A stretch of 32,230 bases of DNA from Acidobacteriota bacterium (GCA_003231035.1 QIHU01000241.1:1-32230); one strand, 5' to 3'. Shown: positions 1 to 27,598, numbered from the stretch's first letter. A program made the numbers and translations. Notes: generated by a model from the letters alone, not told the origin.

Positions 1-2890
1 GATCTCGGCATGGTGGTGGGGATGCTCGGGGTGCTCGCGGCGGGCGGCGCCTACCTGCCCCTCGACCCCTCACACCCCGCCGAGCGATTGCGCTGGATCC
101 TCGAGGATTCGACGGTGGCCCTTCTTCTCGCTTCGCGCGAGGCGCTCGAGCTTCTGCCGCGCACCGCCGCCCCACGGCTGGAGTTGGAACGCGATGGACG
201 GGTGCACCCAGCGCGGGCTCGCGGGCTCGTCGAACCGATGCCCGTGGTTCGTCACGAAGTGGATTCCCGGGCTTACGTCCTCTACACCTCGGGCTCGACC
301 GGTCGCCCCAAAGGGGTCGAAGTCAGCCACCGCTCGGTGGGAAACTTCCTCAGCTCGATGGCCCTTCGACCGGGAATGGAGGCGCACGATGTGATGCTCG
401 CCATCACCACCCTGGGCTTCGATATCTCGGTTCTGGAATTGCTGTTGCCCTTGTCCGTCGGCGGACGAGTCGAACTGGTCGAGAGCGAGGTGGCGGCCGA
501 TCCCGCCTCTTTGATGGCGGCGATCGACCGTGATGCAGGCCACCCCGGCGGGCTGGCGACTGTTGATCGAGGGCGGCTGGCAGGGTCGGGCCGCGCTCAA
601 GGTGCTGTGTGGTGGTGAGGCGCTGGTGGCGGAGTTGGCGGGTTGGCTGGCGGCGCGGTGTAGCCAGCTGTGGAACGTCTACGGGCCCACCGAGACCACC
701 GTCTGGTCTAGCGCTGAACGCATCCGCGGCCACGGCGAGGCGAGCCCTAAGGTGACCGTGGGGCGGCCGATCGCCAACACCCAGATCGTCCTGGCCGATC
801 CCCGAGGGCGGGCGGTGGCTTTGGGGGTGATGGGAGAACTGTGGATCGGCGGCGTCGGGGTGGCCCGCGGCTACTTGGGGCGCCCGGCGTTGACCGCCGA
901 ACGGTTCGTCCCCGATCCCTTCGCCGCGCTGAGCGGAGCGCGCATTTACCGCAGCGGAGATCTGGCTCGACGCCGCGCGGATGGCAAGCTTGAGCTCCTC
1001 GGTCGGCTCGACAGCCAGGTCAAGGTACGCGGTTTTCGGATCGAACTCGGCGAGATCGAGTCGGTCCTGGAAACGCTCCCCGAGGTGGCTCACGCGGTGG
1101 CTCTTGTTCAGGAAGAGGCTCCCGGTGAGCGCCGCTTGGTGGCCTACTTGGTCGCGAGTTCCGGGTTGGAGCTGGAGGCTGAAGCGCTGCGCTCGGCTCT
1201 GGGAGACCGTCTACCCGGGTACATGATCCCGGCCCTCCTGATGGCCGTCGAGAGTTTACCGCTCAACTCCAGCGGGAAGGTCGACCGCAAGGCCCTCGCG
1301 GCGCTGGGGGAAGTCTCGGTGGTGGCTGGCAAGGCCGCCTTCGTGGCCCCGCGCGGCGCCGGGCAACGGGCCTTGGCCGCCATCTGGAGTGAGGTTCTGG
1401 GCTGCGAACGGCTGAGCGTCGAGGACAACTTCTTCGCCCTCGGAGGGGACTCCATCCTGGCCATCCGCGTGGTCTCGATGGCCGCTGACCGAGGGCTGCA
1501 TTTCACCCCGCGGGACCTCTTCCGTCACCCGACGGTAGCTGCTTTGGCGGCCCTGGCCGAGGACGACGTGGAGAGCGACGAAGGCTGGACTCTGACCCCG
1601 GCGCAGCGCTGGCTACTCGCCGCTCCCAGCTGGGCCAGGATCGGCGAGGTGAGGGTTGTGCGCCCACCCCGTCCGATCTCTCGGCGGCAGCTGGAAGCGG
1701 CGCTGCGCGATGTCGTTGCCACCTACCCGAGCCTGGGCGGTCGCTTCGTGAGGGGCGATCCCATCGAGATCTTCGAAGCGGGTAAGGGGGTGGTTCCGAC
1801 GGTCTCTCGCGTGCAGCTGACTCTCTGCCGTTCCCAGGCGCGCCAGGCGGTGACGCGGGCGCTGCTTCGCCGCCTCGACAGCGCCTCCGGCCCTCTCTTG
1901 GTAGCGGCGCTGGTCGACGATGGGGCAGCGAGCGAGCTCGTTCTCGCGGCCCACCCCCTGGCCCTCGACGAGAGCTCCTGGCCGCCCTTGCTCGCTACCT
2001 TGGTCGGTCGGCTGGAGGGCGAAGAGACACGGAGCGATGAGGCGGCGCCGACCACCCGAACGCTCGTTGAGTTGGGGCGGCTGGGGCGCGGGGCTCCGCC
2101 GGCCGACGACGATGACCGGTGGCGGCGGCTGGCCGGCCAAACGGCGGGCGCCTTGGCGAGCGATGCGGGGTTGGCCTCGCCCCCGGACGCCGTTACCGCG
2201 CGCCACGGGGAGTCCTCGACCGAGTCCGTGGTGCGCCTGCGCTTGTCGACGGCCGCGACCCAGGATCTGACTTCGCTTTCCTCGGCCCTGGACGGTGAGC
2301 TCTCGGAATTCTTGCTCGCGGCGACGCTCCAGACCCTCTGCGCCTGGTCGGCCTGTCGTCGCCTCGTCGTGGCGGTCGGAGCCCAGGCCGCTGAACGGAG
2401 TCGTTGGGGATTGGCGCGGGAGGCGGTGGGAGCTTTCGCGCCTCCCGTGCCGGTGATCCTGGAGATCGAGCGCACGCTCGCGGCGACGGTGCCGAGAGTT
2501 CGCCGTCAGTTGCGCCGAAGCCGGCGGTTAGCGGCGATTTGGGGGATCACCTTGCCTGCCGAGTTGGCGGTGGAGGTCGGTTACCGATGGTGGCGAGCGG
2601 AGCCACCGGGGCCCGGTTGGGGCTGTGCCCCCGCCGCCTTCGACGCCCCCGCGCGCGGCTGGCTGCTGGCCATCCAAGGTTCTCACGACGAGGGCGCTCT
2701 GGGGGTCGAGTGGTCCTTCGATCCTGAGCGCCTCTCCCGCGGCGCTGTCGAGGCGCTCGCCGCCGCGACACTCGACGGCTTGCGCTCGTTGCTGGCAAGT
2801 GCCGCTCCCGCCGCGCGACAGCTCGTCGACCATTTTCCTGATGCTGAACTGAGTTCCGACGAACTGGAATCCCTACTGGCCGAGCTGTGA
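1..2890 (+). CDS. NRPS, 5'-truncated by the window, A(Gly)-T-degenerate E domain; frameshifted at about 525-533
   Basis: Frame of ORF 10..618 gives A-domain motifs GGAYLPLDP, YVLYTSGSTGRPKGV and GFDISVLE. Frame of ORF 530..2890 continues with MQATP, LCGGEAL, NVYGPTETTVWS, GELWIGG, YRSGDL, QVKVRGFRIELGEIE and SGKVDRKAL. T domain FFALGGDSI (Ser codon 1451) is the type normally preceding an E domain. C-terminal domain about 1580-2890 has HPLALDESSW and ends in a COM-like tail HFPDAELSSDELESLL. Confidence 0.9.
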
Positions 2891-2931
2891 TCGATCTTGA
2901 CCGTGACCGCCATCGAGCGCCGGAGACACCC

Positions 2932-5900
2932 ATGAATCGCAAGAACGTGGAAGACATCTACCTGCTACCGCCGACTCAACACGGCATGTTGTTGTACATG
3001 CTGCTCGAGAATCAGTACCCCGAGGTCTACCTCGAGCAGTACAGCTGCATCCTCGCCGGTTCCTTCAACCCGGCGGCGTGGCGCGAGGGTTGGCAAGCGG
3101 TCTTCGATCGGCATGCGGCGTTGCGCACTCAGTTCCTATGGGCCAAGCGCGATCGTCCTTTGCAGGTCGTGCGCCGCGATCTCGATCTTCCTTGGGAGGA
3201 ATACGACTGGAGAGAGCTCTCCGCTGACGAGCAGGAGCGGCGCTGGAGGAAGCTGCTCGAAGCGGATCGAAGTCGCGGCTTGACCCTCGATCAAGCACCC
3301 TTGATGCGCTGTGCCCTGGCGCGGGTCGGCGAGGTCCGGTTCCGGTTTCTGTGGACTTATAGCCACATGTTGGTCGATGGCTGGTCGATGGCTTTGATTC
3401 TGAGCGAGGTCCACAAGCTCTATCAGGCAGCGGTGGAAGGAGTCGATGCCGAGTTGCCCCCGGCGGAGAAGTTTCGTGACTTTGTCGCCTGGACTCAGGA
3501 GCAAGAGGTGGAGCGGGCGGAGAGTTTCTGGCGCCGTGAGCTGGCCGGCTTCGACGCGGCGACGCCGCTGCCCCTCGATGGCACCGGCCGGACGTTGGCC
3601 CCCGGCGAGGAGCGCTCCGCCCAGCTCGCGGTGATGGTGGACCCGGAGCTGACCGAGGGGCTGCGCACCTTGGCGCGTGGCAACCGGGTCACCCTGAACA
3701 CCCTGTTCCAGGCCGCCTGGGCGATGGTGCTGGCGCGCTACAACCGCCTCGATGACGTCACCTTCGGCGCCCTCTGTTCCGGCCGTCCGGCGGATCTGCC
3801 AGGGGTCGAGCGGATGGTCGGTCTGTTTATCAACTCCTTGCCAGCGCGCGTTCGTCTCGATCCAGTGCAGCGGCTCGGCGATTGGTTGGCTCAGCTGCAG
3901 GAGAGGCAAGTGGAGTCGCGCCAGTTCGAGTATTTGGCCGGGGAGCAGATTCGCGCCTGGAGCGATCTACCGCGCCGGGAAGAGGTCTTCAAGAGCGTGG
4001 TGATCTTCGAGAACTACCCGGTGGAGGGGACGGACTTCGAGGACTCCGGCCTGACCATCGAGGAGTGCGAGCTGCGGGAGGCTGGCAACTTCGCCTTCTC
4101 GCTGATGGTCAGCCTCCACGAAGGGGGGCTGAAGGTGACTTCCCTCTACCATCGCGACCGTTTCGATCGAACGGCGGTTCGACAACTCTTGGCAAGTCTC
4201 GAGACCGTCCTGCGGGCCTTTGTCGATCACCCTCAGGCCCGGCTGGGTGAGATCCAGCTCCTGGACGAGACGCAGCGCACGGCCGTTCTGGCCGCGGGCC
4301 ACGGGGAGATGATAGAGCGCACCACCGGTCTATTGCATCAACCTTTCGAGGAGATGGCTCGGCAGTGGCCTGGGCAGGTGGCGCTCGCCGCGGATCTGCT
4401 GGGCGATGACCCGCGGCGGATGAGCTATGCCGAGGTGGAGCTGCGCAGCCGAGCGCTGGCCATCGAGTTGCGCGGGAAGGGAGTGGGTCCAGATGTGGTG
4501 GTCGGTCTCCTGGGCTCGCGCTCCCTGGATTTCATTATCGCCATGCTCGGTGTGCTGCGCGCGGGCGGTGGTTACTTGCCGCTCGATCCCAGCTATCCCG
4601 CCGACCGCCTGGCCTTCATGGTGGAGGACTCGCGAGCGCGGGTCCTGGTGGTGGCGCCGGACGCCAAGGGGGCTCTAGAGACTTGTGATCTGCCGCGAAT
4701 CGATTTCGACGCGGCGGCGCGGGAACCCACTGAGCTGGGTGAACTCGCACCCAGCACGGCGATCCCAGCCAACCTCGCGGCCGTCATCTACACCTCGGGG
4801 TCGACCGGTAAGCCCAAGGGTGTTGGGGTGCCGCACGCGACCGCGTTGCACTACAGCCAGGACTCGATTGAGGTCTACGCCGTGGGGCCGCAAGACCGCC
4901 TGTTGCAGTTCTCTTCGATCGCGTTTGATACCAGTTTCGAAGAGATCTTCCCGGCGCTGTCGACCGGTGCCACCCTGGTGTTGCGCGATGAGGTGACCGC
5001 CAACTTCTTGCGCCGGGTCGGCGATCAAGGGATCACCGTGCTCAATCTGCCCACCGCTTTCTGGGGCGACCTAGCCCTGGAGATGGCGAAGAGTGTCGAC
5101 CGGGGTGACGAGATCGCGATCCCGGAGTCGCTGCGGGTGGTGATCATCGGCGGCGAGGAGGCTCAGAGCGACCGAGTGGAGGTCTGGCGCCGGGCGATGG
5201 AGAGTGCTCTCAAGGGCACTGGCGCGAGTCCGCCGACCCTGTTCAACACCTACGGCCCCACCGAGGCGACGGTGGTGACCACTAGGGCTGACCTCACCCA
5301 TCCCCGGCCGGAGCAGCGCTCGCTGGTGCCGATCGGGCGGCCGATCGCGAACGCGCGCACCTACCTCCTTGCGGCGACGATGGAGCCGGTGCCGCCGCTC
5401 GCCGATGGCGAACTCTACCTCGGGGGTGCTGGCCTGACGCGGGGCTACCTCGGTCGTCCAGCCGAGACCGCGGCCGCCTTTCGGCCGGACCCTTTCGCCG
5501 CGCGGCCGGGCGAGCGTCTCTACCGCAGTGGCGACCTGGCTCGGCGCCATCGCGACGGCCAGCTCGAGTTCCGTGGACGCATCGATCACCAAGTCAAGGT
5601 CCGCGGGTACCGCGTCGAGCTAGGGGAGATCGAGATGGCGCTGCGCGCCCTCGGTGGGGTGCGCGACGCGGTGGTGACGGTGCGCGGCGGCAACGGTGAC
5701 GACCGCATCGCCGCCTACTGGGTGGCGAGCGAGGTCGCCGAAGACGGGCTGAGCGCCATCGACCTGCGTCGGGCCCTGGGCGGCTCCTTACCCAAGTACA
5801 TGGTCCCCGCCTACTTTGTCGAGCTTCCAGAAATCCCGCTCACCGCCACCGGCAAGATTGACCGCCGGGCGCTGCCCGCTCCGGGGCCGCAACGGCCGGA

Positions 5901-8900
5901 GTTGGCGAGCGGCTATCGGGCGCCGCGCAACCCCGTGGAGGAGGTTCTGACCGGCATTTGGTGCGAGCTTCTGGGCGTCGAGCGGATCGGAGTCGAGGAT
6001 GACTTCTTCGAACTCGGCGGTCACTCGCTGCTCGTCGCCCGGTTGACCGGCCAGGTGCGCTCCTCACTGGGGGCCGAGTTGCCGATGACGGCGGTTTTCG
6101 ACCATCCGACGGTCGCCGAACTGGCCGAGATCGTGGGCGATAGCGACGCGCGGGGGAGCGACGCCGCGCCGGTTCCCGAGTTGCCCCCCTTGCTTGCCCT
6201 ACCTCGGGATGGGCGCAAGATTCCGCTCTCCTTTCCCCAGGAGCGGGTCTGGTTCCTCGACCGTCTTTCGGGGGGCGGCAACAAGGCCTACAACTTTCAG
6301 GTCACGATTTGGTTGCAAGGAGGGCTCCACGTGGGCGCCTTTCATCGCACCTTGGAAGAGATCGTGCGGCGCCATGAAGTGCTGCGCACCAGTTTCCCGG
6401 AGGTCGACGGCGAGCCGGTTCAGCGGATACATCCGCCTAGTCCCGTTCCGTTGCCCGTCGTCGACCTGTCGGGTTTGTCCACGGTGGAAGTCGGGGAAGC
6501 TTCGGAACGGCTGGTCGCCTTGGCGACGCAGATTCCTTTTGACCTGGGGCAGGGGCCGTTGATTCGGTGGTGGATGCTACGTTTGGCGGCGGACTATCAC
6601 GAGCTGCTCCAGGTGGAGCAGCACTTCGTGCATGACGGTTGGTCCTTCGCCGTGATGTTGCGCGAAATGAAGGCGATTTACGGCTCCTTCATCGCCAACC
6701 AACCCTCGCCGTTGCCGGAGTTGCCGGTGCAGTACGCCGACTATGCCCTCTGGCAACGCTCCTGGATGGAGGGCGAGGTGATGGAGCAGATGCTCGGCTA
6801 CTGGACGGGGCAACTGGAGGGTGCACCGACGGCGCTCGAACTGCCGACCGACCGGCCGCGTTCGAGCCAGCCGAGTTTCGCGGGCGACATGAACCTGTAT
6901 CAGATTCCGGGCGAGACCTACCGGGCGCTGCGCGAGTTCGGCCGTCGTGAGGGCTTCACCCTCTACATGACGACGCTCGCCGCCTTCTATCTGCTGCTCT
7001 ACCGCTACAGCGGCCAGACCGACATTCTGGTGGGGACCACCAACGCCAATCGGCGCACTCCCGAGATGGAAAAGCTGCTCGGGATGATCGTCAACAGCCT
7101 GGTGATGCGCGGCCAGCTGGGGGGCGACCCGACCTTCCGTGAGTTTCTGCTCCGGATCCGCGAAATGACCCTCGGCGGCTACAACTATCAGGACATGCCG
7201 CTCGAGCGGTTGGTGCGCGAGATCGATCCAGAGCGCCATGTGGGGCGCAATCCGCTCTTCCAAGTGCTCTTCCAGTTTCATGACGCGGCGATTCCCGACC
7301 TCGATTTTCCCGGCGACATCGAGGGCAAGTTCCTGGTCCGGGGAAACCGCACCGCCAAGATGGACTTGACGGTGATCGTCATTCCGCGGGCCGAGCAGCG
7401 GGTAGGCTCCGACGCCAGCGACGAAGAGATGCGGGCCAGCCTCCACTGGGAGTACTCGACCGAACTCTTCGACGAGGCGACGATCTCGCGGATGGTGGGC
7501 CACTACCTCACCTTGCTCGCCAGCGTTGTCGCCGATCCCGACTTGAAGCTCTCCGAGCAGCGCATGTTGAGCGCGGCGGAGACTCTGCAACTCACCCGCT
7601 GGAACGAGGAACACAGGTGCCCGCCACCGGAGTGGATCTCGATCGCCGTCCCGTTCGCCGAGCACCGCCGGCAACGGCCCAACGCCGCCGCGGTGTCGAT
7701 GGCTCCCGTGTCGATGGCCCTCGGCCTCGGGGCCAACGGGGGGGCGAGCCCTGGGGTGCGGGAGTGGAGTTACGCTGAGTTGGACCGCCATAGCGAGGAG
7801 CTGGCCCGGCGCCTGGGCGCTCTGGGCGTCGGCCCCGAGGTGGTGGTCGCGGTCTCGCTTTCCCGTTCGCCGTTCATGGTGGCGGCCCTGCTCGCGGTGG
7901 CCAAGCTCGGTGGAGCCTACCTTCCCCTCGATCCCGACTATCCGGCCCAGCGTCGTAGCTTCATGCTCGACGACTCGGGAGCGGCGCTGCTTCTCACCGA
8001 ACGGGGGTTGCTCGACGGGATACCACCGGTGGCGCGAGAAGGGGGGGTGGAAGTGGTGGTGATCGACGACGAGGGCGATGCCCCCGCCGCTCCCCACGGT
8101 GGGTCGCCGCTGGCCCGGCCCGACCCCGCCAACCTGGCCTACCTGATCTACACCTCGGGGTCGACCGGAAGACCCAAGGGGGTCGCCGTGACCTACGGGG
8201 GATTGGCCAACTTCCTCGCCTCGATGGCGCGACGCCCTGGCTTCACCGCCGAGGACGTGCTGCTGGCGGTGACCACCCTGTCGTTCGACATCGCTGGCTT
8301 GGAGCTCTACCTACCGTTGGTCACCGGCGGCAAAGTGGTCGTCGCCGACGCGGCGACGGCGGCCTCCGGGAGCCGGCTGGCGGCGGCGATCGAGAGCTCG
8401 CGGGCGACCGTGATGCAGGCGACCCCAGCGACCTGGCGGATGCTCCTCGAGGCTGGCTGGAGGCCGCCGGCAGGGCTCAAGCTGCTGGCGGGCGGCGAGG
8501 CCCTGCCCCCCGTCCTGGTGGCCGAACTGGCCGCCGCTTCGCGCGGGGAACTCGAACTATGGAACCTCTACGGTCCGACCGAGACGACGGTTTGGTCGAC
8601 CCTCGATCGGGTCGAGGTCGCACCGGCCAGCACCCTGAATTCGGTGAATTCCGTGTCGATCGGCCACCCGATCGACAACACGGGTGGCTACGTGGCCTCG
8701 CGGCGCTGGGAGCTGGCGCCGGTCGGGGTCCACGGTCAGTTGCTGATCGGCGGCGCCGGGCTGGCCCGTGGCTACTGGGCTCGGCCGGGTCTCACCGCCG
8801 AACGCTTCCGCCCCGATCCCTTCTCGCGGCGGCCGGGCGAGCGGCTTTACCTCAGCGGAGATCGGGTGCGTCGGCGCGAGGACGGCCGACTCGACTACCT

Positions 8901-20976: not shown

Positions 20977-21048
20977 ATCGGCTCACCCTCGCGGACACAG
21001 TCCCTGTACAACTTCAACCCTTTGGACAGCGTTTCATGGAGGCGGACC

Positions 21049-22434
21049 ATGACGGAACAACCTAGTCAACGTAGCTTTCGAATTTTCGGCATTATCTGGG
21101 TAGGTCAACTGATCTCGTTGATCGGCTCCGGCATGACAACGTTCACGTTGGCGATCTGGATCTTGAGAAATACCGAGCACGTCACCAACTACACCCTGGC
21201 CATTGTGCTCGCCAGCCTTCCCGGAACTCTGCTGGCGCCTTTCGCCGGTGCTCTGGTCGATCGCTGGAGCCGGCGGCTGGTGATGATCGGCTCCGACATC
21301 GCTCCGGCGATCGTCACCTTGACCGTTGCCTGGCTACTGATGCAGAACAATCTACAGCTTTGGCATGTTTACATCGGTGTGGTGGTGGGGTCGATCGCGC
21401 AGACCTTTCAGTGGCCAGCCTACATGGCCTCGATCACCTTGCTGGTGCCGAAGGAGCAATACGGGCGGGTGAACGGCATGCTCCAGTTTGGCCAGGCGGC
21501 CACCACCATCGCGGCACCCGCTCTCGCCGGCTTGTTGCTCTCCTTCATGAGTCTTTCGAAGGTGCTCTTGATCGACTTCGTGACCTTCCTCTTCGCGGTC
21601 ACTACGCTGGCCATCGTGCGCATCCCACAGCCGCCTGAAAGCGAGGCCGGCAAGGCTTCGAAAGGGTCAATCTGGCAGGAGGTCAAGTTTGCCTGGAACT
21701 ACATCCGGGAGCGCAAAGGGTTGTTCAATTTGTTGATGTTCTTTGCCGTGGTCAACTTGGCGGCGAGCGTGACCGGAGTTGCGTTGATGCCGATGGTTCT
21801 TGGCTTTGCCTCGGAAGCAGGGGTTGGGACGATCATGTCGATGGTCGGAGTCGGGTTGCTGATCGGTGGCTTCATCATGACCGCCACCGGTGGGCCGAAG
21901 AAGAAGATCTACGGGGTGCTCGGTGCCGGTGCCATGTACAGCATCTGTTTCGTGATGATCGGACTCAAACCGTCGATTTGGCTGGTCGGTGCCGGGGTGG
22001 TCCTCTGGTACACCGTCCTGCCGATCATGAATGCCAGCAGCCAGACCATTTGGATGAGCAAGGTGGAGCCGGATCTGCAGGGTCGCGTCTTCTCGATGCG
22101 GCGCATGATGGCGCAGTTCACCGTGCCGATCGGAGATTTCTCGGCCGGCCCGCTGGCCGACAAGATCTTCAACCCGCTCCTCATCGCTGGCGGACCGTTG
22201 GCCGCCTCGGTGGGAGGCGTGATCGGGGTGGGGCCCGGCCGTGGCATTGGCCTGATGTTCCTGGTCATGGCGATCGTGCCTGGCCTTGCCGCCCTCTGGG
22301 GTTTTCTGAATCCCAGGGTGCGCAATGTTGAAACTGAAATACCGGACCACTCGGCGGCGCCAGAAGCGGCGCCGGATGTCGAGGAGACCGGCGGAGAAAC
22401 GAGTGCAACCGATGCCGCGGAGGCGGGAGCTTAA
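21049..22434 (+). CDS. MFS efflux transporter (DHA3 / macrolide-efflux-like), probable product exporter
   Basis: GGAGG upstream of ATG 21049. Multiple hydrophobic helices; F..IWVGQLISLIGSGMT start, MFS motif A GALVDRWSRR, and DLQGRVFS in the C-terminal half. Confidence 0.9.
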   Translation: MTEQPSQRSFRIFGIIWVGQLISLIGSGMTTFTLAIWILRNTEHVTNYTLAIVLASLPGTLLAPFAGALVDRWSRRLVMIGSDIAPAIVTLTVAWLLMQNNLQLWHVYIGVVVGSIAQTFQWPAYMASITLLVPKEQYGRVNGMLQFGQAATTIAAPALAGLLLSFMSLSKVLLIDFVTFLFAVTTLAIVRIPQPPESEAGKASKGSIWQEVKFAWNYIRERKGLFNLLMFFAVVNLAASVTGVALMPMVLGFASEAGVGTIMSMVGVGLLIGGFIMTATGGPKKKIYGVLGAGAMYSICFVMIGLKPSIWLVGAGVVLWYTVLPIMNASSQTIWMSKVEPDLQGRVFSMRRMMAQFTVPIGDFSAGPLADKIFNPLLIAGGPLAASVGGVIGVGPGRGIGLMFLVMAIVPGLAALWGFLNPRVRNVETEIPDHSAAPEAAPDVEETGGETSATDAAEAGA

Positions 22435-22447
22435 GAGGATGAGAATT

Positions 22448-24736
22448 ATGAGATTTGGAGAGATAGGCAGAGTGTGGAACATCGCGTTGACTCACTGCCT
22501 GTGGCTAGCGATTCTGACCATGATGGCGGTGCCGGTGGTGGCACAGAAGGACGAAGCGGCAGCCGTCCCGGCGCAACCGTTGCGACACTTCGAGGTCACC
22601 CAGGCGAGTTCGCCGATCAAGATTGACGGCCTGCTCGACGAAGCGGCCTGGGAGACGGCGGTGGTCATCGATCTGCCCTATGAGTGGTTCCCGAGCGACA
22701 ACGGCACTCCGCCGGTGAGGACCGAGTCGTTGGTCACCTACGACCGCACCAATATTTACATCGCTTTTCGCGCCTTCGATCCGAATCCCGAGGAGATCCG
22801 GGCCCACTTGATGGACCGCGACGCGATCGGCCTCTTCATCCAAGACGATCATGTGGGCTTCACCCTCGATACTTTCAATGACGAACGGCGCGCCTTCCAC
22901 TTCCGGGTCAACCCTCTGGGGGTGCAGATCGACGCCGTCTTTTCAGAACGCACCGCGCGCGAGGACTACTCGGTCGACCTCATCTGGGACTCGGCCGGCC
23001 GGGTCCATGCCGAGGGGTACGTCGTCGAGGTGGCCATTCCGCTCAAGCAACTCCGCTTTTCTCGCAGCGACGAGGCGCAGACCTGGGGCTACGAGGCATT
23101 TCGTAGCTATCCACGCAGCGTTCGCCATCGGATTACCTCGCGTTTTACCGATCGTGAGAAGGACTGCCTGCTGTGTCAAGAGAATAAGATCAGCGGCTTC
23201 CAACAACTGAAGACCGGCAACAATCTTGAGATTACCCCCACCGTGACGGGGATCAGCACGGATAGCGTGGACACCTTTCCTGACGGCCGTCTTCAGAACG
23301 TCGTGGAGGACCTAGAGGCCGGTGTTTCGTTGCGTTGGGGGGTCACTCCGAACATCACCGTCAGCGCCACGGTCAATCCTGACTTTTCACAGGTCGAAGC
23401 CGATGTGGCGCAGCTCGATATCAACAACAGATTCGCCCTCTTCTTTCCCGAAAAGCGCCCCTTCTTCCTAGAAGGGTCGGACCTCTTTCAGACGCCTCTC
23501 AACGCGGTCTTTACCCGCACCGTGGCCAACCCCCGCTGGGGCACCAAGCTCTCCGCCAAGGAGGGTAAGAACACCTTGGGTCTCTTCGTCACCGACGATC
23601 GGATTACCAATATTCTGATTCCAGGCAACCAAGGTTCGAGCTTTGCCTTTCTGGACGATGATCTGACCACCGGTGTGGTCCACTACACCCGAGAGGTGGG
23701 GAAGTTCTCGGCGATTGGCCTGCTGTACACCGGGCGCGAGGGCGACGGCTATTTCAACCGTGTGGGCGGGATCGATGGTTTCTTGCGTTTCACCCCTTCC
23801 GACACCGTACGGGTTCAGTACCTGCGCTCGGATACGCTCTATCCCGTGGAGGTGGCGGACCGTTTCGGTCTGCCCACTGACCCTTTCGACGGCGACGCCT
23901 TCTCCGTGCGCTACGACCACTTCGCCAAACTTTGGAGGGGATTCGTGCGCTACGAGAATCTCGATCCAGAGTTCCGTGCCGATGCTGGCTTTATCCCGAG
24001 GGTCGATGTCAAGACTTCCGAGGTAGGTTACGAGCGTGTGGTCTATGGCGAGCAGGGCGACTGGTATGCACAAATGAGTTTCGGCGGTCGCGCCCTGCGG
24101 ACTGAGGATCACAGCGGTCTACTGACCGATGAGGAGATCGAAGTTTTCGGCATTTACCAAGGGCCGAAGCAGTCCTTCGTTCGGCTACAACTCTTCGACA
24201 ACCAGGAGTTCTTCGGCGGGGTGACCTACGACATTCAAAAGGCGCGGCTGTTTGGGCAGTTCACCCCCAGCGGCAACGTGCGCGCCTCGCTGGCGATTTG
24301 GTCGGGTGACGAGGTCGATTTCGCCAATGGCCGACCCGGCGATCAGGTCTTGATCAGTCCCAACGTGCTGATGCGTTTGGGACGTCACCTGTCGGTGGAA
24401 GTCGACTATCTGCGCCGGGAGCTCGACGTGGAGGGAGGGCGGCTGTTCACCGCCGAGCTAGCGCAAGCCAATATCATCTACAACTTCAACGTGCGCTCGT
24501 TCGTGCGTGGAATCTTCCAGTACCAGAAGATCGCTCGCGACCCGTCTCTGTACACCCGAACGGTGGTAGAGGAGAACAGCGACTTCTTCGTTCAATTCCT
24601 CTACTCCTACAAGATCAACCCACAGACCGTCCTCTTCGTTGGCTATACCGACACCCGCGCGGGGGTGGAGGACGTCTCTTTGCAGCAGACCGATCGCACC
24701 TTCTTCCTGAAACTGGGCTATGCCTTCCTCTACTGA
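22448..24736 (+). CDS. Exported outer-membrane protein: N-terminal CBM9-like domain plus DUF5916-like beta-barrel
   Basis: Signal-peptide-like N-terminus (..LWLAILTMMAVPVVA|QKD). IKIDGLLDEAAW is typical of CBM9-like starts; TVNPDFSQVEAD and FFPEKRPFFLEG match my recollection of the DUF5916 family. C-terminal amphipathic strand FFLKLGYAFLY. Start at 22439 or 22448; the ORF-track start 22325 overlaps the MFS gene. Confidence 0.8.
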   Translation: MRFGEIGRVWNIALTHCLWLAILTMMAVPVVAQKDEAAAVPAQPLRHFEVTQASSPIKIDGLLDEAAWETAVVIDLPYEWFPSDNGTPPVRTESLVTYDRTNIYIAFRAFDPNPEEIRAHLMDRDAIGLFIQDDHVGFTLDTFNDERRAFHFRVNPLGVQIDAVFSERTAREDYSVDLIWDSAGRVHAEGYVVEVAIPLKQLRFSRSDEAQTWGYEAFRSYPRSVRHRITSRFTDREKDCLLCQENKISGFQQLKTGNNLEITPTVTGISTDSVDTFPDGRLQNVVEDLEAGVSLRWGVTPNITVSATVNPDFSQVEADVAQLDINNRFALFFPEKRPFFLEGSDLFQTPLNAVFTRTVANPRWGTKLSAKEGKNTLGLFVTDDRITNILIPGNQGSSFAFLDDDLTTGVVHYTREVGKFSAIGLLYTGREGDGYFNRVGGIDGFLRFTPSDTVRVQYLRSDTLYPVEVADRFGLPTDPFDGDAFSVRYDHFAKLWRGFVRYENLDPEFRADAGFIPRVDVKTSEVGYERVVYGEQGDWYAQMSFGGRALRTEDHSGLLTDEEIEVFGIYQGPKQSFVRLQLFDNQEFFGGVTYDIQKARLFGQFTPSGNVRASLAIWSGDEVDFANGRPGDQVLISPNVLMRLGRHLSVEVDYLRRELDVEGGRLFTAELAQANIIYNFNVRSFVRGIFQYQKIARDPSLYTRTVVEENSDFFVQFLYSYKINPQTVLFVGYTDTRAGVEDVSLQQTDRTFFLKLGYAFLY

Positions 24737-24767
24737 GGCGGCGGCGCGACGGCACTGGAGACTGACG

Positions 24768-26441
24768 ATGAACAAACCCATCCTCGATTGCATTCTGGTT
24801 GGCCACAACGAAGGAAATTACCAAGACTTCGTCGAACGGCAACGGATGACCTCCTCGACGACTGGAGCCTACGGCGAGGTGATGACCAACTCGATCCTGT
24901 TCAAGGGGCGCAGGATCACCTACATGGACTTGATGAACTATGGCATTGGTCGGGCGACCGGACGACGGTCAAAACTATCGAGCTTCGGGCCGACCAACCT
25001 CGCTTCGTGCTATCTGCGGAACTTCCTGCGCGGTTGCGGTCTGTCGGCCGAGATCGTCAATACTTTTCAACCTCAGAAGGCTCTGCTCGAAGAGTTCCTC
25101 GACGAGCCGCATCGGGTGGTTGCGATCACCACGACCTTCTACGTCGAGCCAAGCCCCATTCAGGAGATCGTGCAGTTCGTGCGTGAGCGGAGCCCCCAGA
25201 CGACGATTGTGGTGGGTGGGCCGCATGTGTTCAATATCTGCGAGGGTAACGACGCCAAGACGCAGGACTTCATCTTCGAGACCATCGGCGCGGACATCTA
25301 TGTGCAGGAGTCGCAGGGAGAACTTACCCTGTCGAGGATTCTGATGGCTCTGCGTTCCTCGCGGGACCCGGACCTTTCGAAAATCGAAAACCTGATCTAT
25401 CGCGAAGATGGCGCCTATGTGCGCACCACCCGGTTGAGCGAAGAGAATGTGATGAATGAAAACTCGATCGACTGGAGCCAGTTCGATTCGAACTACCTGG
25501 AGCCGATGACGCTGACGCGCACGGCGCGAAGTTGCGCCTTTTCTTGCTCCTTCTGCAACTATCCGCGCATGGCGGGCGCGCTGAGTCTGACCGATATCGA
25601 TGTGGTTGAGCGCGAGTTGAGGCAACTGGAGGAGATCGGCGTGCGCTCGGTGCATTTCATCGACGACACCTTCAACGTGCCGATCCGGCGGTTCAAGGAG
25701 CTGCTGCGGATGATGATCCGCAACCGGTTCACTTTTCGCTGGATGTCCTTCCTGCGCGCCGGCAACGCCGACGCCGAGGCGATTGACCTGATGGCCGAGA
25801 GCAACTGCTTCGGCTCTCTGCTGGGAATCGAATCGGGAGATTCCCAGGTGCTGACAATGATGAACAAGAAGGCTACCATCGAGCTCTACGAACAGGGCAT
25901 CGCCAGACTCAAGACCAACGGCATTCTCGCTTACGGCATGTTCTTCATGGGATTTCCCGGGGAAACGCAGCAGACGGCGCGCAACACCTTCGAGTTTATT
26001 CAGCGCACCGCCCCCGATTTCTACATGACCGGACTCTGGTATCACGATACCTTGGCGCCGATTCACGAACGGGCCCAAGAGCTGGGGATTCGCGGCGCTG
26101 GCTATAACTGGAGTCACAAGACGATGAACTGGCGCGAGGCGGCGCAGTGGGTGCACTACATCTACAACAACATTGATCGATCGACGATCATGCCGCTGAC
26201 CGGTTTCAGCTTCGAGACCCTGCCCTACTTGCTCGGCCTCGGCATGCGGCTGGAAAAGATCAAGGAGTTCGCCCGTTTGGCGCACGGCATGTTGGTCGCC
26301 ACCCTGGACGACGAGCCGCAGGATTTCAGCCGCCAAGAGAGGGAATTGGTCCGCATCTGCGGTGAACTCTACGGCGACGATCTCGCCCACGTCGCCAAGG
26401 AGGCTCTGGCCACGGCGCCACCGATCGAGGTCGCGGTTTGA
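24768..26441 (+). CDS. Cobalamin-dependent (class B) radical SAM methyltransferase, PhpK-family-like
   Basis: GGAG upstream of ATG 24768. CxxxCxxC motif RTARSCAFSCSFCNYP at 25533-25556. N-terminal B12-binding-like region (VAITTTFYV, IVVGGPHV, QGELTL), then FIDDTFNVP, LGIESG..VL..MNK and MGFPGET. The overall motif pattern resembles PhpK-family proteins by recognition only, not by a search. Confidence 0.85.
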   Translation: MNKPILDCILVGHNEGNYQDFVERQRMTSSTTGAYGEVMTNSILFKGRRITYMDLMNYGIGRATGRRSKLSSFGPTNLASCYLRNFLRGCGLSAEIVNTFQPQKALLEEFLDEPHRVVAITTTFYVEPSPIQEIVQFVRERSPQTTIVVGGPHVFNICEGNDAKTQDFIFETIGADIYVQESQGELTLSRILMALRSSRDPDLSKIENLIYREDGAYVRTTRLSEENVMNENSIDWSQFDSNYLEPMTLTRTARSCAFSCSFCNYPRMAGALSLTDIDVVERELRQLEEIGVRSVHFIDDTFNVPIRRFKELLRMMIRNRFTFRWMSFLRAGNADAEAIDLMAESNCFGSLLGIESGDSQVLTMMNKKATIELYEQGIARLKTNGILAYGMFFMGFPGETQQTARNTFEFIQRTAPDFYMTGLWYHDTLAPIHERAQELGIRGAGYNWSHKTMNWREAAQWVHYIYNNIDRSTIMPLTGFSFETLPYLLGLGMRLEKIKEFARLAHGMLVATLDDEPQDFSRQERELVRICGELYGDDLAHVAKEALATAPPIEVAV

Positions 26442-26464
26442 TCGTCGCGAGCCGGGCCGCAACC

Positions 26465-27598
26465 ATGGCCAACCAGAAGATCGATCACTGGCGAGCGCTG
26501 TGGGACGATGCTTATGAGCAACCGGTTGGAGACGGCGATCCGAGCTTGAATCTCGCTGGCTGGACGAGCAGCTACACGGGACTGCCCATCCCACTCGCCG
26601 ATATGCGCGAGTGGGTGGCGGGGACGGTAGGGCGCATCGATTCGCTGACCCCAAGCCGGGTTTTGGAGATCGGCTGCGGTACCGGCATGCTTCTCCTACG
26701 CATCGCCCCGCGCTGCGAGATCTATCGCGGAGTCGACTTCTCGCCGACTTCGCTGGCCTATGTCGCGGAGCAGGTTCGCGTCGCGGGAATCGAGGGGGTG
26801 CGATTGTTCGAGGCCGATGCCGATCAACTCGCTTTGCCGGCTTCGGAACGGTTCGATCTGGTGGTGCTCAACTCGGTAGTCCAGTACTTCCCCGACGCTG
26901 ACTACCTCCGGCGAGTCCTCCTCGGCGCGATCCAACACCTGGCTCCGGGAGGCGCGATCTTCCTCGGCGACCTGCGCAGCCGTTCGCTCCTGCCTTGCTT
27001 TCATTCTTCGCGACTGCTGCGCCAGGCGGACCGCGACCGGCCTCTCTCCGAACTGGCCACGCAGCTGACTGGCGATGTCGCCAGCGAAGTGGAATGGGCT
27101 CTCGACCCGGCCGATCTTGAAGCGATCACCGCGTACCTGCCCGGTTCGGTCTCGATCACCACCCAGCTCAAACGGGGCCGGCGGCGCAATGAGATGACCT
27201 GCTTCCGCTACGATGCCACCCTCCGTCTGGAGCCCGGCCCCGCCTGGGGAAGGGGCGCTGACGGCAAGGACGTAGTCGCGGACTGGCGCGACGAAGCTCT
27301 CTCGGCCAGCATAGTACGCGGTTGGTTGGACGCCAGAGGGGAGGCGGATCTGACCCTTCAAGGCATCCCCAATGCTCGTTTGGTCGAAGAGCTGAAGGCA
27401 CTGCGCTGGCTGCGCAGGCCTGAAGGTCTGGAGACGGTTGGTGAGCTGGCGAGGGCGGTGCGTCGAGCACGTCTGAGCGGCATCGAACCGGAGGATCTCT
27501 GGCGGCTAGAGAGGGGTGGTGTTGGCGACGAGCTGAGGATCGAAGTCGATTGGCAAGCGGATGCCGCTGATCGCTTCCTGGCGCGAGTGAGCCGGTAA
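26465..27598 (+). CDS. Stand-alone SAM-dependent methyltransferase of the NRPS N-methyltransferase domain type
   Basis: Motif I VLEIGCGTG, GVDFS and FDLVVLNSVVQYFP. Also GWTSSYTGLPIP..MREW, LKRG...NEMTCFRYD and IPNARL, which are typical of N-MT domains embedded in A domains. Start ATG 26465, or TTG 26438 overlapping the upstream stop. Confidence 0.9.
   Translation: MANQKIDHWRALWDDAYEQPVGDGDPSLNLAGWTSSYTGLPIPLADMREWVAGTVGRIDSLTPSRVLEIGCGTGMLLLRIAPRCEIYRGVDFSPTSLAYVAEQVRVAGIEGVRLFEADADQLALPASERFDLVVLNSVVQYFPDADYLRRVLLGAIQHLAPGGAIFLGDLRSRSLLPCFHSSRLLRQADRDRPLSELATQLTGDVASEVEWALDPADLEAITAYLPGSVSITTQLKRGRRRNEMTCFRYDATLRLEPGPAWGRGADGKDVVADWRDEALSASIVRGWLDARGEADLTLQGIPNARLVEELKALRWLRRPEGLETVGELARAVRRARLSGIEPEDLWRLERGGVGDELRIEVDWQADAADRFLARVSR

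What the first reader, a model, noticed from the sequence alone, without database searches (positions are those of the whole stretch)
1..27598. Apparently uncharacterised Gly/basic-residue-rich ureido-peptide NRPS system with in-trans methylation and no thioesterase
Seen: tightly coupled co-oriented genes with six visible modules, an exporter, an outer-membrane barrel, a B12 radical SAM enzyme and a free N-MT. Manually aligned specificity codes in order: DILQLGVVWK, DTENIGTVVK, DILQLGLVWK, DVENLGAVSK, DILQLGVVWK, DILQLGVIWK. Established: DILQ(L)G..WK is the glycine signature, and acidic D-x-E pockets usually select basic residues. Inference: the product ends ...Gly-Lys/Orn-(ureido)-Gly-Arg/Lys-Gly-Gly and is then methylated. 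I do not recognise this combination as any described cluster, but I could not search, and the 5' part lies outside the window.
Basis: partly seen in the sequence, partly recalled or inferred. Interest (0 to 1): 0.85.

Follow-up and report, generated by a model that had tools for sequence, protein, structure and literature searches.

The report
Orphan glycine-rich ureido-type peptide synthetase
The window holds the last six modules and the export and methylation genes of an eleven-module peptide assembly line from an uncultured Acidobacteriota bacterium; no product is known, one domain is of the ureido-forming type in an unusual mid-line place, and the line ends in a conserved, inactivated epimerase-like domain instead of a thioesterase.

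Summary

New findings:
- The window is a whole MAG contig. An exact 91-nt overlap and a syntenic relative show an 11-module line with an A-T start and no thioesterase.
- The C domain between the Lys-like and Gly modules reads EQHFVHDG. It clusters (SH-aLRT 100) with the only four EHHxxHDG ureido-signature domains among 1229 compared. Unlike described cases it follows a C-A-T module, not a loading A-T.
- The terminal "C" domain is an epimerase homologue lacking the catalytic His. It has the lowest dN/dS of 13 segments (0.079).
- That domain defines a family: 77 of 120 hits are Gly-specific and C-terminal. In soil metagenome contigs it is followed by the same MFS (21 of 29 loci) and DUF5916 gene (15 of 29).
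- The A1 frameshift is a 14-nt deletion, absent from the relative and from a near-identical environmental contig.

Ureido formation, release mechanism and methylation sites remain inferred. Verdict: a real orphan cluster, a new variant of known NRPS logic.

The parts
1..1279 (+).
   Evidence: Pfam AMP-binding in two frames; frames; blastx to the relative's intact 2088-aa ORF; environmental contig with 14 extra nt behind 526
1370..1555 (+). T (PP-binding) domain of module 6
   Evidence: Pfam PP-binding, residues 281-342 of the 530-2890 ORF
1565..2887 (+). Ex: degenerate epimerase-like domain (motif AHPLALDE), weakly conserved
   Evidence: Weak Pfam Condensation hit, 1.4e-6. Best PDB matches are the TycA/TycB/GrsA E domains, 2.7e-5 and weaker. 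57.8% identity to the relative. dN/dS 0.349, highest of 13 segments.
2887..4326 (+). DCL-type condensation domain of module 7 (motif SHMLVDG)
   Evidence: Alignment. Maps to the post-E C domain of NCBIfam PRK05691. Of its 25 best domain hits, 12 lie directly after an E domain and 11 lie at a protein N-terminus.
4333..5874 (+). A domain of module 7, code DTENIGTVVK (Lys-like)
   Evidence: 8 of 10 identical to the Lys-predicted code DTEDVGTVVK. Same code in the relative.
5944..6132 (+). T domain of module 7
   Evidence: Pfam PP-binding, residues 1020-1082
6172..7626 (+). Curea-clade condensation domain of module 8 (motif EQHFVHDG)
   Evidence: Motif. Nearest of 1229 C domains are the only 4 with EHHxxHDG, at ranks 1, 2, 3 and 5. 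One clade with them, SH-aLRT 100. 87.8% identity to the relative and dN/dS 0.116.
7699..9192 (+). A domain of module 8, code DILQLGLVWK (Gly)
9244..9438 (+). T domain of module 8
9681..11060 (+). LCL-type C domain of module 9 (HHIVSDG)
11091..12635 (+). A domain of module 9, code DVENLGAVSK (Arg-like; relative has DVEDLGAVSK)
   Evidence: Arg consensus in PMC12283262 section 11
12909..14303 (+). LCL-type C domain of module 10 (HHIVSDG)
14406..15956 (+). A domain of module 10, code DILQLGVVWK (Gly)
16453..17787 (+). C domain of module 11 (HHIANDQ)
17827..19302 (+). A domain of module 11, code DILQLGVIWK (Gly)
19366..19551 (+). T domain of module 11
   Evidence: Pfam PP-binding, residues 1029-1090
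19570..20973 (+). E*: C-terminal epimerase-derived domain, catalytic His replaced by Phe (AHFYPVDLGS), EGHGRE read as LGHGRE
   Evidence: PDB best hits are E domains of PvdL, TycA and bacitracin synthase 3, 1.6e-52 to 1e-46. NCBIfam TIGR01720. Family of 77 of 120 hits. 89.3% identity to the relative and dN/dS 0.079, lowest of 13 segments.
21022..22434 (+). MFS transporter (MFS_1/MFS_3), part of the conserved E*-MFS-DUF5916 cassette
   Evidence: Pfam; 48-67% identical homologues directly after E* in 21 of 29 metagenome loci
22439..24736 (+). Secreted DUF5916/CBM9 protein, probable outer-membrane beta-barrel
   Evidence: Pfam. Signal peptide. Homologues in 15 of 29 loci. Model with long beta-hairpins at pLDDT 70-93 in residues about 480-680, mean 50.7. 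Foldseek top hits are all outer-membrane barrels, TM <= 0.37.
24720..26441 (+). B12-binding radical SAM methyltransferase of the PhpK family
   Evidence: Pfam. TIGR04479 at 587.5 bits over 499 of 504 positions, cut-off 600. 89% identical in the relative, <= 41% elsewhere.
26438..27598 (+). Class I SAM methyltransferase, acceptor unknown
   Evidence: Pfam; NCBIfam hits all below cut-offs; homologues in 6 of 29 E*-family loci

Best explanation
The window is the 3' part of one operon-like NRPS cluster of an uncultured Acidobacteriota bacterium.

Architecture (shown). With the adjoining contigs, the cluster encodes a colinear 11-module line: A-T-C-A-T-C-A-T | C-A-T | C-A-T-C-A(Gly)-T-Ex | DCL-A(Lys-like)-T-Curea-like C-A(Gly)-T | C-A(Arg-like)-T-C-A(Gly)-T | C-A(Gly)-T-E*. 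There is no thioesterase.

Ureido step (inferred). The Curea-clade domain (EQHFVHDG) most likely joins the alpha-amine of the Lys-like residue to the amine of the next Gly through a carbonyl. The donor module is not a loading module. The step therefore requires that the preceding DCL domain put the upstream hexapeptide on the side-chain amine of that residue. This would give a branched, chain-reversed peptide with a free carboxylate.

Termination and export. The line ends in E*, an epimerase-derived domain that has lost the catalytic His. E* is strongly conserved (shown). E*, the MFS pump and the secreted DUF5916 barrel form a cassette found in many soil metagenome contigs (shown). E* most likely serves TE-independent off-loading, either itself or by recruiting an unlinked enzyme. 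The MFS and barrel then carry the cationic Gly-rich peptide across both membranes (both inferred).

Tailoring (inferred). The PhpK-family B12 radical-SAM enzyme and the class I methyltransferase methylate the peptide in trans; the sites are unknown.
For: Architecture:
- Domains by Pfam.
- A unique exact 91-nt overlap joins C166 to the window, and the window to C161.
- The relative G001 has the same gene order at 69-89% protein identity.
- In G001 the line starts with A-T behind TPR/AAA genes. The G000 orthologue of that gene is on C130.

Specificity codes.

Ureido domain:
- Among 1229 C domains from 269 retrieved NRPSs, only 4 carry EHHxxHDG. They rank 1, 2, 3 and 5 against this domain at 49-51% identity.
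- The window domain, the relative's domain and those four form one clade, SH-aLRT 100.
- The Glu, the second His and the extra His are kept in both orthologues. Mutating each of these abolished or nearly abolished SnaA activity (PMC11212132).
- The domain has the second-lowest dN/dS of 13 segments, 0.116.

E* domain:
- Homologous to E domains at 1e-52.
- 77 of 120 best hits have F or Y in place of the catalytic His. Of these, 75 of 77 follow a Gly-code A domain (the other 2 are fragments without an A domain). All 77 end within 35 residues of the C-terminus, and 0 of 77 keep the first Glu of EGHGRE.
- By contrast, 43 of 43 canonical E domains keep that Glu and 0 of 43 follow a Gly code.
- dN/dS is 0.079, the lowest of 13 segments.

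Cassette and absence of release enzymes:
- Downstream of E* in 29 metagenome loci: MFS in 21, DUF5916 in 15, methyltransferase in 6, radical SAM in 0.
- No Thioesterase or Beta-lactamase family hit lies on the cluster contigs of G000 or G001.

Junction: the DCL nature of the first g2 domain fits the Ex/DCL junction.
Against: - The motif is EQH, not EHH. The paper calls EHHxxHDG 'sufficient and necessary' on current examples.
- In 3 of the 4 relatives with the signature, the domain follows a loading A-T. In the fourth it is at a protein N-terminus. No case after a C-A-T module was seen, so the side-chain acylation step is pure inference.
- E* lacks both hallmark acid/base positions, which makes catalysis by E* itself doubtful.
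- The A1 domain is frameshifted in this assembly.
- The DUF5916 model is poor: mean pLDDT 50.7, pTM 0.41.
- Substrate calls rest on 8-9 of 10 code identities only, and position 278 is N where the Lys and Arg codes have D.
- G000 is a fragmented MAG (841 contigs). The C130 to C166 link has no sequence overlap.
- In G001, C142 and C158 show no exact overlap either.
Confidence: 0.6

Rival explanations
1. The EQH domain is an ordinary amide-forming LCL-type domain that descends from a ureido-forming ancestor. The product is then a plain linear or cyclised undecapeptide ...Gly-Lys-Gly-Arg-Gly-Gly without a carbonyl bridge.
For: - The motif departs from EHHxxHDG at the first His.
- The donor module is an elongation module with its own DCL domain, fed by six upstream modules. 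This suits normal peptide-bond formation and does not suit the described donor logic.
- Curea domains are close kin of LCL domains (PMC11212132; tree).
Against: - The three residues whose mutation abolished or nearly abolished SnaA activity are all kept.
- Clade membership has SH-aLRT 100.
- The domain is the second most constrained segment, dN/dS 0.116, and EQHFVHDG is identical in both species.
- The donor residue is a diamino acid by code, which offers a second amine.
Confidence: 0.35
2. E* is only a docking platform. The chain is released by an enzyme encoded elsewhere, such as a type II thioesterase or a PBP-type cyclase as in the surugamide/desotamide systems.
For: - E* lacks the His and the first Glu of EGHGRE.
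- Both genomes hold stand-alone 259-aa Thioesterase-family ORFs (G000:C67, G001:C56). Both also hold several Beta-lactamase-family genes off-cluster.
- Two Kitasatospora proteins belong to the E* group.
Against: - No such gene lies on the cluster contigs of either genome.
- Clustering of ORFs downstream of E* in 29 loci found nothing conserved beyond MFS, DUF5916 and the methyltransferase. Upstream regions beyond 10 kb were not seen.
Confidence: 0.4
3. The cluster is a decaying pseudogene array in this organism, since its first visible A domain is frameshifted.
For: A 14-nt deletion splits A1 into two frames, with a stop at 616-618.
Against: - The relative's gene is one open 2088-aa frame.
- A near-identical contig of a public run (207 nt, 4 other letters) carries 14 extra nt behind position 526, which restores the frame.
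- All other genes are open.
- dN/dS is 0.08-0.35 in all 13 segments.
- The break lies 530 nt from a contig end of a MAG.
Confidence: 0.08
4. The PhpK-family radical-SAM enzyme is a P-methyltransferase and the peptide contains a phosphinate amino acid, as in phosphinothricin tripeptide.
For: - TIGR04479 (PhpK family P-methyltransferase) matches over its full length at 587.5 bits.
- The upstream module 5 A domain has a basic pocket (DPR...RAK type).
Against: - The score is under the 600-bit cut-off.
- No PEP mutase (TIGR02320) hit at E <= 0.001 in G000 (92% complete) or G001.
- Homologues at 34-41% identity sit beside NRPS genes in other phyla: strong NRPS hits in 7 of 22 loci. This suggests an NRPS-linked clade of unknown chemistry.
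Confidence: 0.03

Closest known systems
Ureido-forming condensation (Curea) domains: SnaA of threopeptin, SylC, and the anabaenopeptin, pseudovibriamide and bulbiferamide lines (PMC11212132)
   Same: The g2 second C domain is nearest to, and forms one clade with, EHHxxHDG domains. It keeps Glu, catalytic His, extra His, Asp and Gly. A basic residue sits at the donor position, as in SnaA (Arg).
   Different: The first His is Gln (EQH). The domain follows a DCL-A-T elongation module fed by six modules, not a loading A-T didomain. No PEARL/lantibiotic-dehydratase-like gene was seen in the window.
TE-less NRPS lines ending in T-E and off-loaded by stand-alone PBP-type thioesterases (SurE, WolJ/DsaJ; PMC11735501)
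   Same: The last module ends T-E-like with no cis-TE, and the C-terminal residue is Gly, which WolJ accepts.
   Different: No Beta-lactamase-family gene lies on the cluster contigs. The E-like domain has lost the catalytic His and the first Glu of EGHGRE. The conserved neighbours are an MFS pump and a DUF5916 barrel. That the actinomycete lines carry an E domain after Gly is my recollection, not from a call.
Canonical NRPS epimerisation domains (TycA, GrsA, PvdL)
   Same: Clear homology at 1e-47 to 1e-52, with TIGR01720 and the GHGRE and TVGWF motifs.
   Different: HH is replaced by HF. The domain follows achiral Gly, is terminal on the last protein, and no DCL partner follows.
PhpK/BcpD B12 radical-SAM P-methyltransferases
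   Same: Full-length match to TIGR04479 at 587.5 bits; B12-binding plus radical SAM domains.
   Different: Below the family cut-off, and no PEP mutase in the genome. The nearest homologues are NRPS-linked in other phyla.

Membership tests
Curea (ureido-forming C domain) | Active-site signature EHHxxHDG | tested here: not met
   The motif is EQHFVHDG in the window and in the relative. Five of the six specified positions are met; the first His is Gln.
Curea (ureido-forming C domain) | Groups with known-signature domains rather than ordinary LCL domains | tested here: met
   Ranks 1, 2, 3 and 5 of 1189 blastp hits are the only 4 EHHxxHDG domains. One clade of 6 with SH-aLRT 100 on a 46-row tree. 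The motif columns were not removed from the tree.
Curea (ureido-forming C domain) | Donor is a loading A-T didomain carrying a free aminoacyl thioester | tested here: not met
   The domain is preceded by DCL-A-T in the same protein and by six further modules.
Curea (ureido-forming C domain) | Product contains a ureido bond derived from bicarbonate | not testable with these tools
   Needs LC-MS or an in vitro assay.
NRPS epimerisation domain | Sequence homology to E domains, TIGR01720 region | tested here: met
   PDB E domains at 1.6e-52 to 1.4e-36; TIGR01720 at 5.4e-18, 65.3 bits, under its 74.2 cut-off.
NRPS epimerisation domain | Catalytic second His of HHxxxDG, and EGHGRE | tested here: not met
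   AHFYPVDLGS aligns to IHHLVVDG of PvdL and TycA, and LGHGRE to EGHGRE. The same loss is seen in 77 of 77 family members.
DCL condensation domain (first domain of g2) | Nearest relatives act after E domains | tested here: met
   Of the 25 best domain hits, 12 have GHGRE 150-700 aa upstream and 11 are at a protein N-terminus. The domain maps to the post-E domain of PRK05691.
PhpK-family P-methyltransferase (TIGR04479) | Score over the curated cut-off | tested here: not met
   587.5 bits against a cut-off of 600.
PhpK-family P-methyltransferase (TIGR04479) | Phosphonate pathway context (PEP mutase) | tested here: not met
   0 of 2 genomes have a TIGR02320 match at E <= 0.001; G000 is 92% complete.
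PBP-type TE off-loading system | Stand-alone Beta-lactamase-family cyclase encoded in the cluster | tested here: not met
   The 16 PF00144 matches in G000 and G001 all lie on other contigs.
Outer-membrane beta-barrel (DUF5916 protein) | Signal peptide, and a closed barrel of long antiparallel strands | tested here: inconclusive
   Signal peptides in the window protein and its homologues. Strands of 10-16 residues at pLDDT 70-93 in the C-terminal third, but mean pLDDT 50.7. All Foldseek hits at E <= 0.001 are outer-membrane barrels with TM 0.11-0.32.
Gly-, Lys- and Arg-activating A domains | Stachelhaus code close to codes assigned to that substrate | tested here: met
   Gly codes are 9 of 10 identical to DILQLGMIWK. 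A2 is 8 of 10 identical to the Lys-predicted code DTEDVGTVVK. A4 matches 8 of 10 positions of the Arg consensus, and the relative 9 of 10. Substrates were not assayed.

The most novel reading that the evidence does not exclude
Two new pieces of NRPS logic in one line.

1. A ureido-forming C domain works in mid-line. A DCL domain first hangs the upstream hexapeptide on the side-chain amine of a Lys-like residue, so the chain reverses internally and leaves a free carboxylate.

2. E*, a His-less epimerase-derived domain that always follows Gly, is a so far undescribed chain-termination device. It is coupled to an MFS pump and a DUF5916 outer-membrane barrel, and the cassette is widespread in soil Acidobacteriota.
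Probability: 0.25. Interest if true: 0.85.

Novelty: new variant of a known kind. Interest (0 to 1): 0.62.

Why it matters
Acidobacteriota are rich in NRPS genes but have almost no characterised products.

- **Ureido logic.** If the mid-line Curea-clade domain is active, ureido chain reversal is not restricted to the first two residues of a line. That would change how such clusters are predicted.
- **Release without a thioesterase.** The Gly-T-E*/MFS/DUF5916 cassette recurs in 77 of 120 database hits and 29 metagenome loci. It gives a concrete, testable handle on how a whole family of TE-less assembly lines releases and exports its peptides.
- **Radical-SAM chemistry.** PhpK-like B12 radical-SAM genes lie beside NRPS genes in several phyla, which points to an unexplored methylation chemistry on non-ribosomal peptides.

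Tried and rejected
- **Whole-protein rankings** for the Curea-like domain were dominated by giant NRPSs whose many C domains add up. I re-ranked at domain level instead.
- **Literature searches for the exact or partial codes** gave nothing relevant. The six codes gave 0 papers. The partial strings gave 5 papers, all chance hits to 'daenig' in unrelated texts.
- **Phylum sample for E*.** Of 401 genomes, 4 matched at E <= 1e-60. One was G000 itself and the other three are canonical HH/EGHGRE E domains. The E* family was therefore reached through the protein database and one metagenome scan instead.
- **P-methylation** was considered and rejected, as no PEP mutase was found.
- **Pseudogene reading** was considered and rated low.
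- **A conserved trans release enzyme downstream of E*** was sought by clustering 765 downstream ORFs. Beyond MFS, DUF5916 and the methyltransferase, only overlapping-frame artefacts recurred.
- **DUF5916 fold.** The model is of low confidence, so the Foldseek hits are read only as a class-level hint.
- **The look-up of sequencing runs** gave one run with a word share of 0.08. It says nothing about habitat or expression. I used it only for the one contig that bridges the frameshift site.
- **Not done or not seen.** Complex prediction was not used and the look-up of encoding contigs was not called (closed). MIBiG, antiSMASH and PARAS are not on hand. Supplements were not opened, so Table S3 and Figures S7 and S10 of PMC11212132 and the code tables of PMC12283262 were not seen. 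These may list further Curea domains or codes that bear on the claims.

Full report
**What is in the window**

The window is a whole 32,230-nt contig (C3) of a fragmented MAG: 841 contigs, 4.99 Mb, 92% complete.

Eight co-oriented, overlapping or nearly abutting genes fill nt 1-27598. Their Pfam content is:
- Four NRPS genes with six A domains, six T domains and eight condensation-type domains.
- An MFS transporter.
- A DUF5916/CBM9 protein.
- A B12-binding radical-SAM enzyme.
- A class I methyltransferase.
- No thioesterase.

Downstream lie a trypsin-like peptidase (minus strand), an amidohydrolase and allantoicase. They are also syntenic in the relative but look like primary metabolism. GC falls from 0.65-0.69 to 0.58-0.60 over the MFS, DUF5916 and radical-SAM genes.

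**Specificity codes**

The GrsA anchor positions came from recall.

- **Gly.** The four Gly codes are 9 of 10 identical to DILQLGMIWK, which PMC12283262 (section 10, read in full) gives as a Gly code.
- **Lys-like.** DTENIGTVVK is 8 of 10 identical to DTEDVGTVVK. The isonitrile-lipopeptide preprint reports that code as predicted to activate Lys (bioRxiv 10.1101/121228, one figure legend seen).
- **Arg-like.** DVENLGAVSK meets 8 of 10 positions of the Arg consensus D-[AV]-E-D-[IVL]-G-A-[VI]-[TD]-K of PMC12283262 section 11. The relative's orthologue has D at position 278 and meets 9 of 10.

No paper in the library holds these codes.

**The broken first A domain**

The first A domain runs in frame 1 to about nt 526 and continues in frame 2. 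Compared with the relative's uninterrupted 2088-aa frame, 14 nt are missing. A 207-nt contig of a public DNA run matches nt 410-602 with 4 other letters. It carries 14 extra nt behind position 526, which restores the frame. The break is therefore an assembly error or a strain-level deletion, not evidence of a dead cluster.

**The whole line**

- **Joins in G000.** The reverse complement of contig C166 ends in the window's first 91 nt, exactly and uniquely. C161 begins with the window's last 91 nt.
- **What C166 adds.** It adds C-A-T (5' cut) and C-A-T-C in front of the window's first A domain.
- **The relative.** A MAG titled 'Acidobacteria bacterium' carries the same cluster on two contigs.
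- **The start of the line.** There the line begins with a 2794-aa A-T-C-A-T-C-A-T protein behind TPR and AAA genes. Its G000 orthologue (70% identity) is on C130.
- **Caveat on the joins.** Neither the C130-C166 link nor the C142-C158 link has a sequence overlap.

The line thus has 11 modules. Upstream codes are DAWF.., DAFW.., DLFNNALTYK, DAFFLGATFK and a Lys2-like DPR.. type. Their substrate readings (hydrophobic, Ala, acidic) are from recall only.

No Thioesterase or Beta-lactamase family match lies on any cluster contig of either genome.

**The ureido question**

The C domain between the Lys-like module and the next Gly module reads EQHFVHDG in both genomes. Yu and van der Donk define ureido-forming domains by EHHxxHDG. 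They show that the Glu, the second His and the extra His matter in SnaA (PMC11212132, passages).

For membership of that group:
- Among 1229 C domains cut from 269 retrieved NRPSs, only four carry that signature. They are ranks 1, 2, 3 and 5 against the window's domain.
- On a 46-row tree the six form one clade with SH-aLRT 100.
- The domain is 87.8% identical between the two genomes, against 73-77% for the other g2 domains. Its dN/dS is 0.116.

Against a simple reading:
- In three of the four relatives the domain follows a loading A-T. In the fourth it is at a protein N-terminus. This agrees with the paper's description of loading A-T didomains preceding Curea in described modular lines.
- Here the donor module has its own C domain. 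By its nearest relatives that domain is a DCL type, and six modules feed it.
- As I recall the proposed SylC chemistry (not seen in a call), the donor needs a free amine next to its thioester.

The only way I see to reconcile these is that the DCL domain acylates the side-chain amine of the Lys-like residue. That step is inferred, not shown. I put ureido formation at roughly even odds.

**The terminal domain**

The last domain is not a generic C domain. Its best solved relatives are the E domains of PvdL, TycA and bacitracin synthase 3, at 1.6e-52 to 1e-46. In the alignment the catalytic His is Phe, and EGHGRE reads LGHGRE. A second, much more degenerate E-like domain ends the g1 protein before the DCL domain.

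The two behave very differently between the genomes:

| Domain | Identity to relative | dN/dS | Rank among 13 segments |
|---|---|---|---|
| E* (end of g4) | 89.3% | 0.079 | lowest |
| Ex (end of g1) | 57.8% | 0.349 | highest |

A database search with E* listed 120 proteins:

| Feature | E* group (77 of 120) | Canonical E domains (43 of 120) |
|---|---|---|
| Catalytic His position | F or Y | His |
| Preceding A-domain code | Gly in 75 of 77 (2 are fragments without an A domain) | Gly in 0 of 43 |
| Distance from C-terminus | within 35 residues in 77 of 77 | within 35 residues in 10 of 43 |
| First Glu of EGHGRE | kept in 0 of 77 | kept in 43 of 43 |
| Length 1500-1640 aa (C-A-T-E*) | 70 of 77 | 7 of 43 |

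**The conserved cassette**

One metagenome scan with an E* alignment returned 35 loci. I examined the 29 with 39% identity or more.
- Downstream of E*, 21 have a homologue of the window's MFS pump (48-67% identity).
- 15 have the DUF5916 protein (54-66%), 6 the methyltransferase and 0 the radical-SAM enzyme. Several loci have less than 2 kb of downstream flank.
- Nothing else recurs.
- In the 11 loci read upstream, the last A code is Gly in 11 of 11. In the 9 loci that reach the third-last module, that code is of the D-I-E-[ND] type in 9 of 9. The window's Arg-like-Gly-Gly end fits this family.

The DUF5916 proteins have signal peptides. A 12-sequence AlphaFold model is poor overall (mean pLDDT 50.7). 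Its C-terminal third is a run of long beta-hairpins at pLDDT 70-93. All Foldseek hits at E <= 0.001 are outer-membrane barrels, with low TM-scores. No paper in the library mentions DUF5916.

**Methylation**

The radical-SAM enzyme matches the PhpK family model over its full length, at 587.5 bits against a cut-off of 600. Neither genome has a PEP mutase match, so P-methylation is unlikely. Its only close homologue is in the relative (89%). Homologues at 34-41% identity lie beside NRPS genes in Clostridia, Lachnospiraceae, Aminicenantes and Acidobacteriota contigs, with strong NRPS hits in 7 of 22 loci. The second methyltransferase has no family above cut-off. The acceptors are unknown.

**Verdict**

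- This is a real, orphan, 11-module, TE-less Acidobacteriota line.
- It carries a Curea-clade domain in an undescribed mid-line position.
- It ends in a conserved Gly-T-E*/MFS/DUF5916 cassette.
- Product structure, release chemistry and methylation sites are inferred.
- I found no described counterpart. MIBiG could not be searched.

Noticed in passing
G000 contigs C128, C83, C35, C186, C149, C130, C82 and others; G001:C186: Both MAGs are very rich in other NRPS genes. Dozens of further module-sized matches were seen. G001:C186 holds open frames of 8790, 4929 and 4581 aa.
   Followed up: no
G000:C241:456-1457 and G001:C79:19110-20111: Beta-lactamase-family domains lie inside very long open frames (1442 and 1370 aa), off-cluster. 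I did not check whether they are fused to NRPS parts or could act as PBP-type release enzymes.
   Followed up: no
L003, L004, L006, L007, L008, L010, L011: PhpK-like B12 radical-SAM genes (37-39% identical to the window's) sit next to multi-module NRPS genes in Clostridia, Lachnospiraceae, Aminicenantes and Acidobacteriota contigs. L004 has two copies.
   Followed up: partly
P0268, P0265 (metagenome proteins of 3764 and 3795 aa): These are NRPS proteins with the architecture A-T-Curea(EHHFVHDG)-A-T-C-A(Gly)-T-C-A(Gly)-T. They are canonical-position ureido lines that are also Gly-rich, and their Curea domains are the nearest relatives of the window's Curea-like domain.
   Followed up: partly
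L035 (G000:C166), module 5 A domain: This A domain carries Lys2-like motifs (AHDPLQRD, YGSTETQRA) and a DPR...RAK-type code. From recall, this type activates side-chain carboxylates of acidic amino acids.
   Followed up: no
window 20001-26000: GC falls to 0.58-0.60 over the MFS, DUF5916 and radical-SAM genes, against 0.65-0.69 in the NRPS genes. This may be a sign that the cassette was acquired separately.
   Followed up: no
window 27728-29482 (-): A 584-aa protein has a Trypsin_2 domain and a weak Somatomedin_B hit at its C-terminus. It is conserved in the relative and was not found downstream of E* in the other loci, except one weak hit in L049.
   Followed up: partly
P0373, P0387 (Kitasatospora, 1539 aa): Two actinomycete C-A(Gly)-T-E-like proteins fall in the His-less group, with further decayed motifs (AGHYLIADVIG, LYVPGRE). 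They may link this family to the PBP-type TE systems.
   Followed up: no
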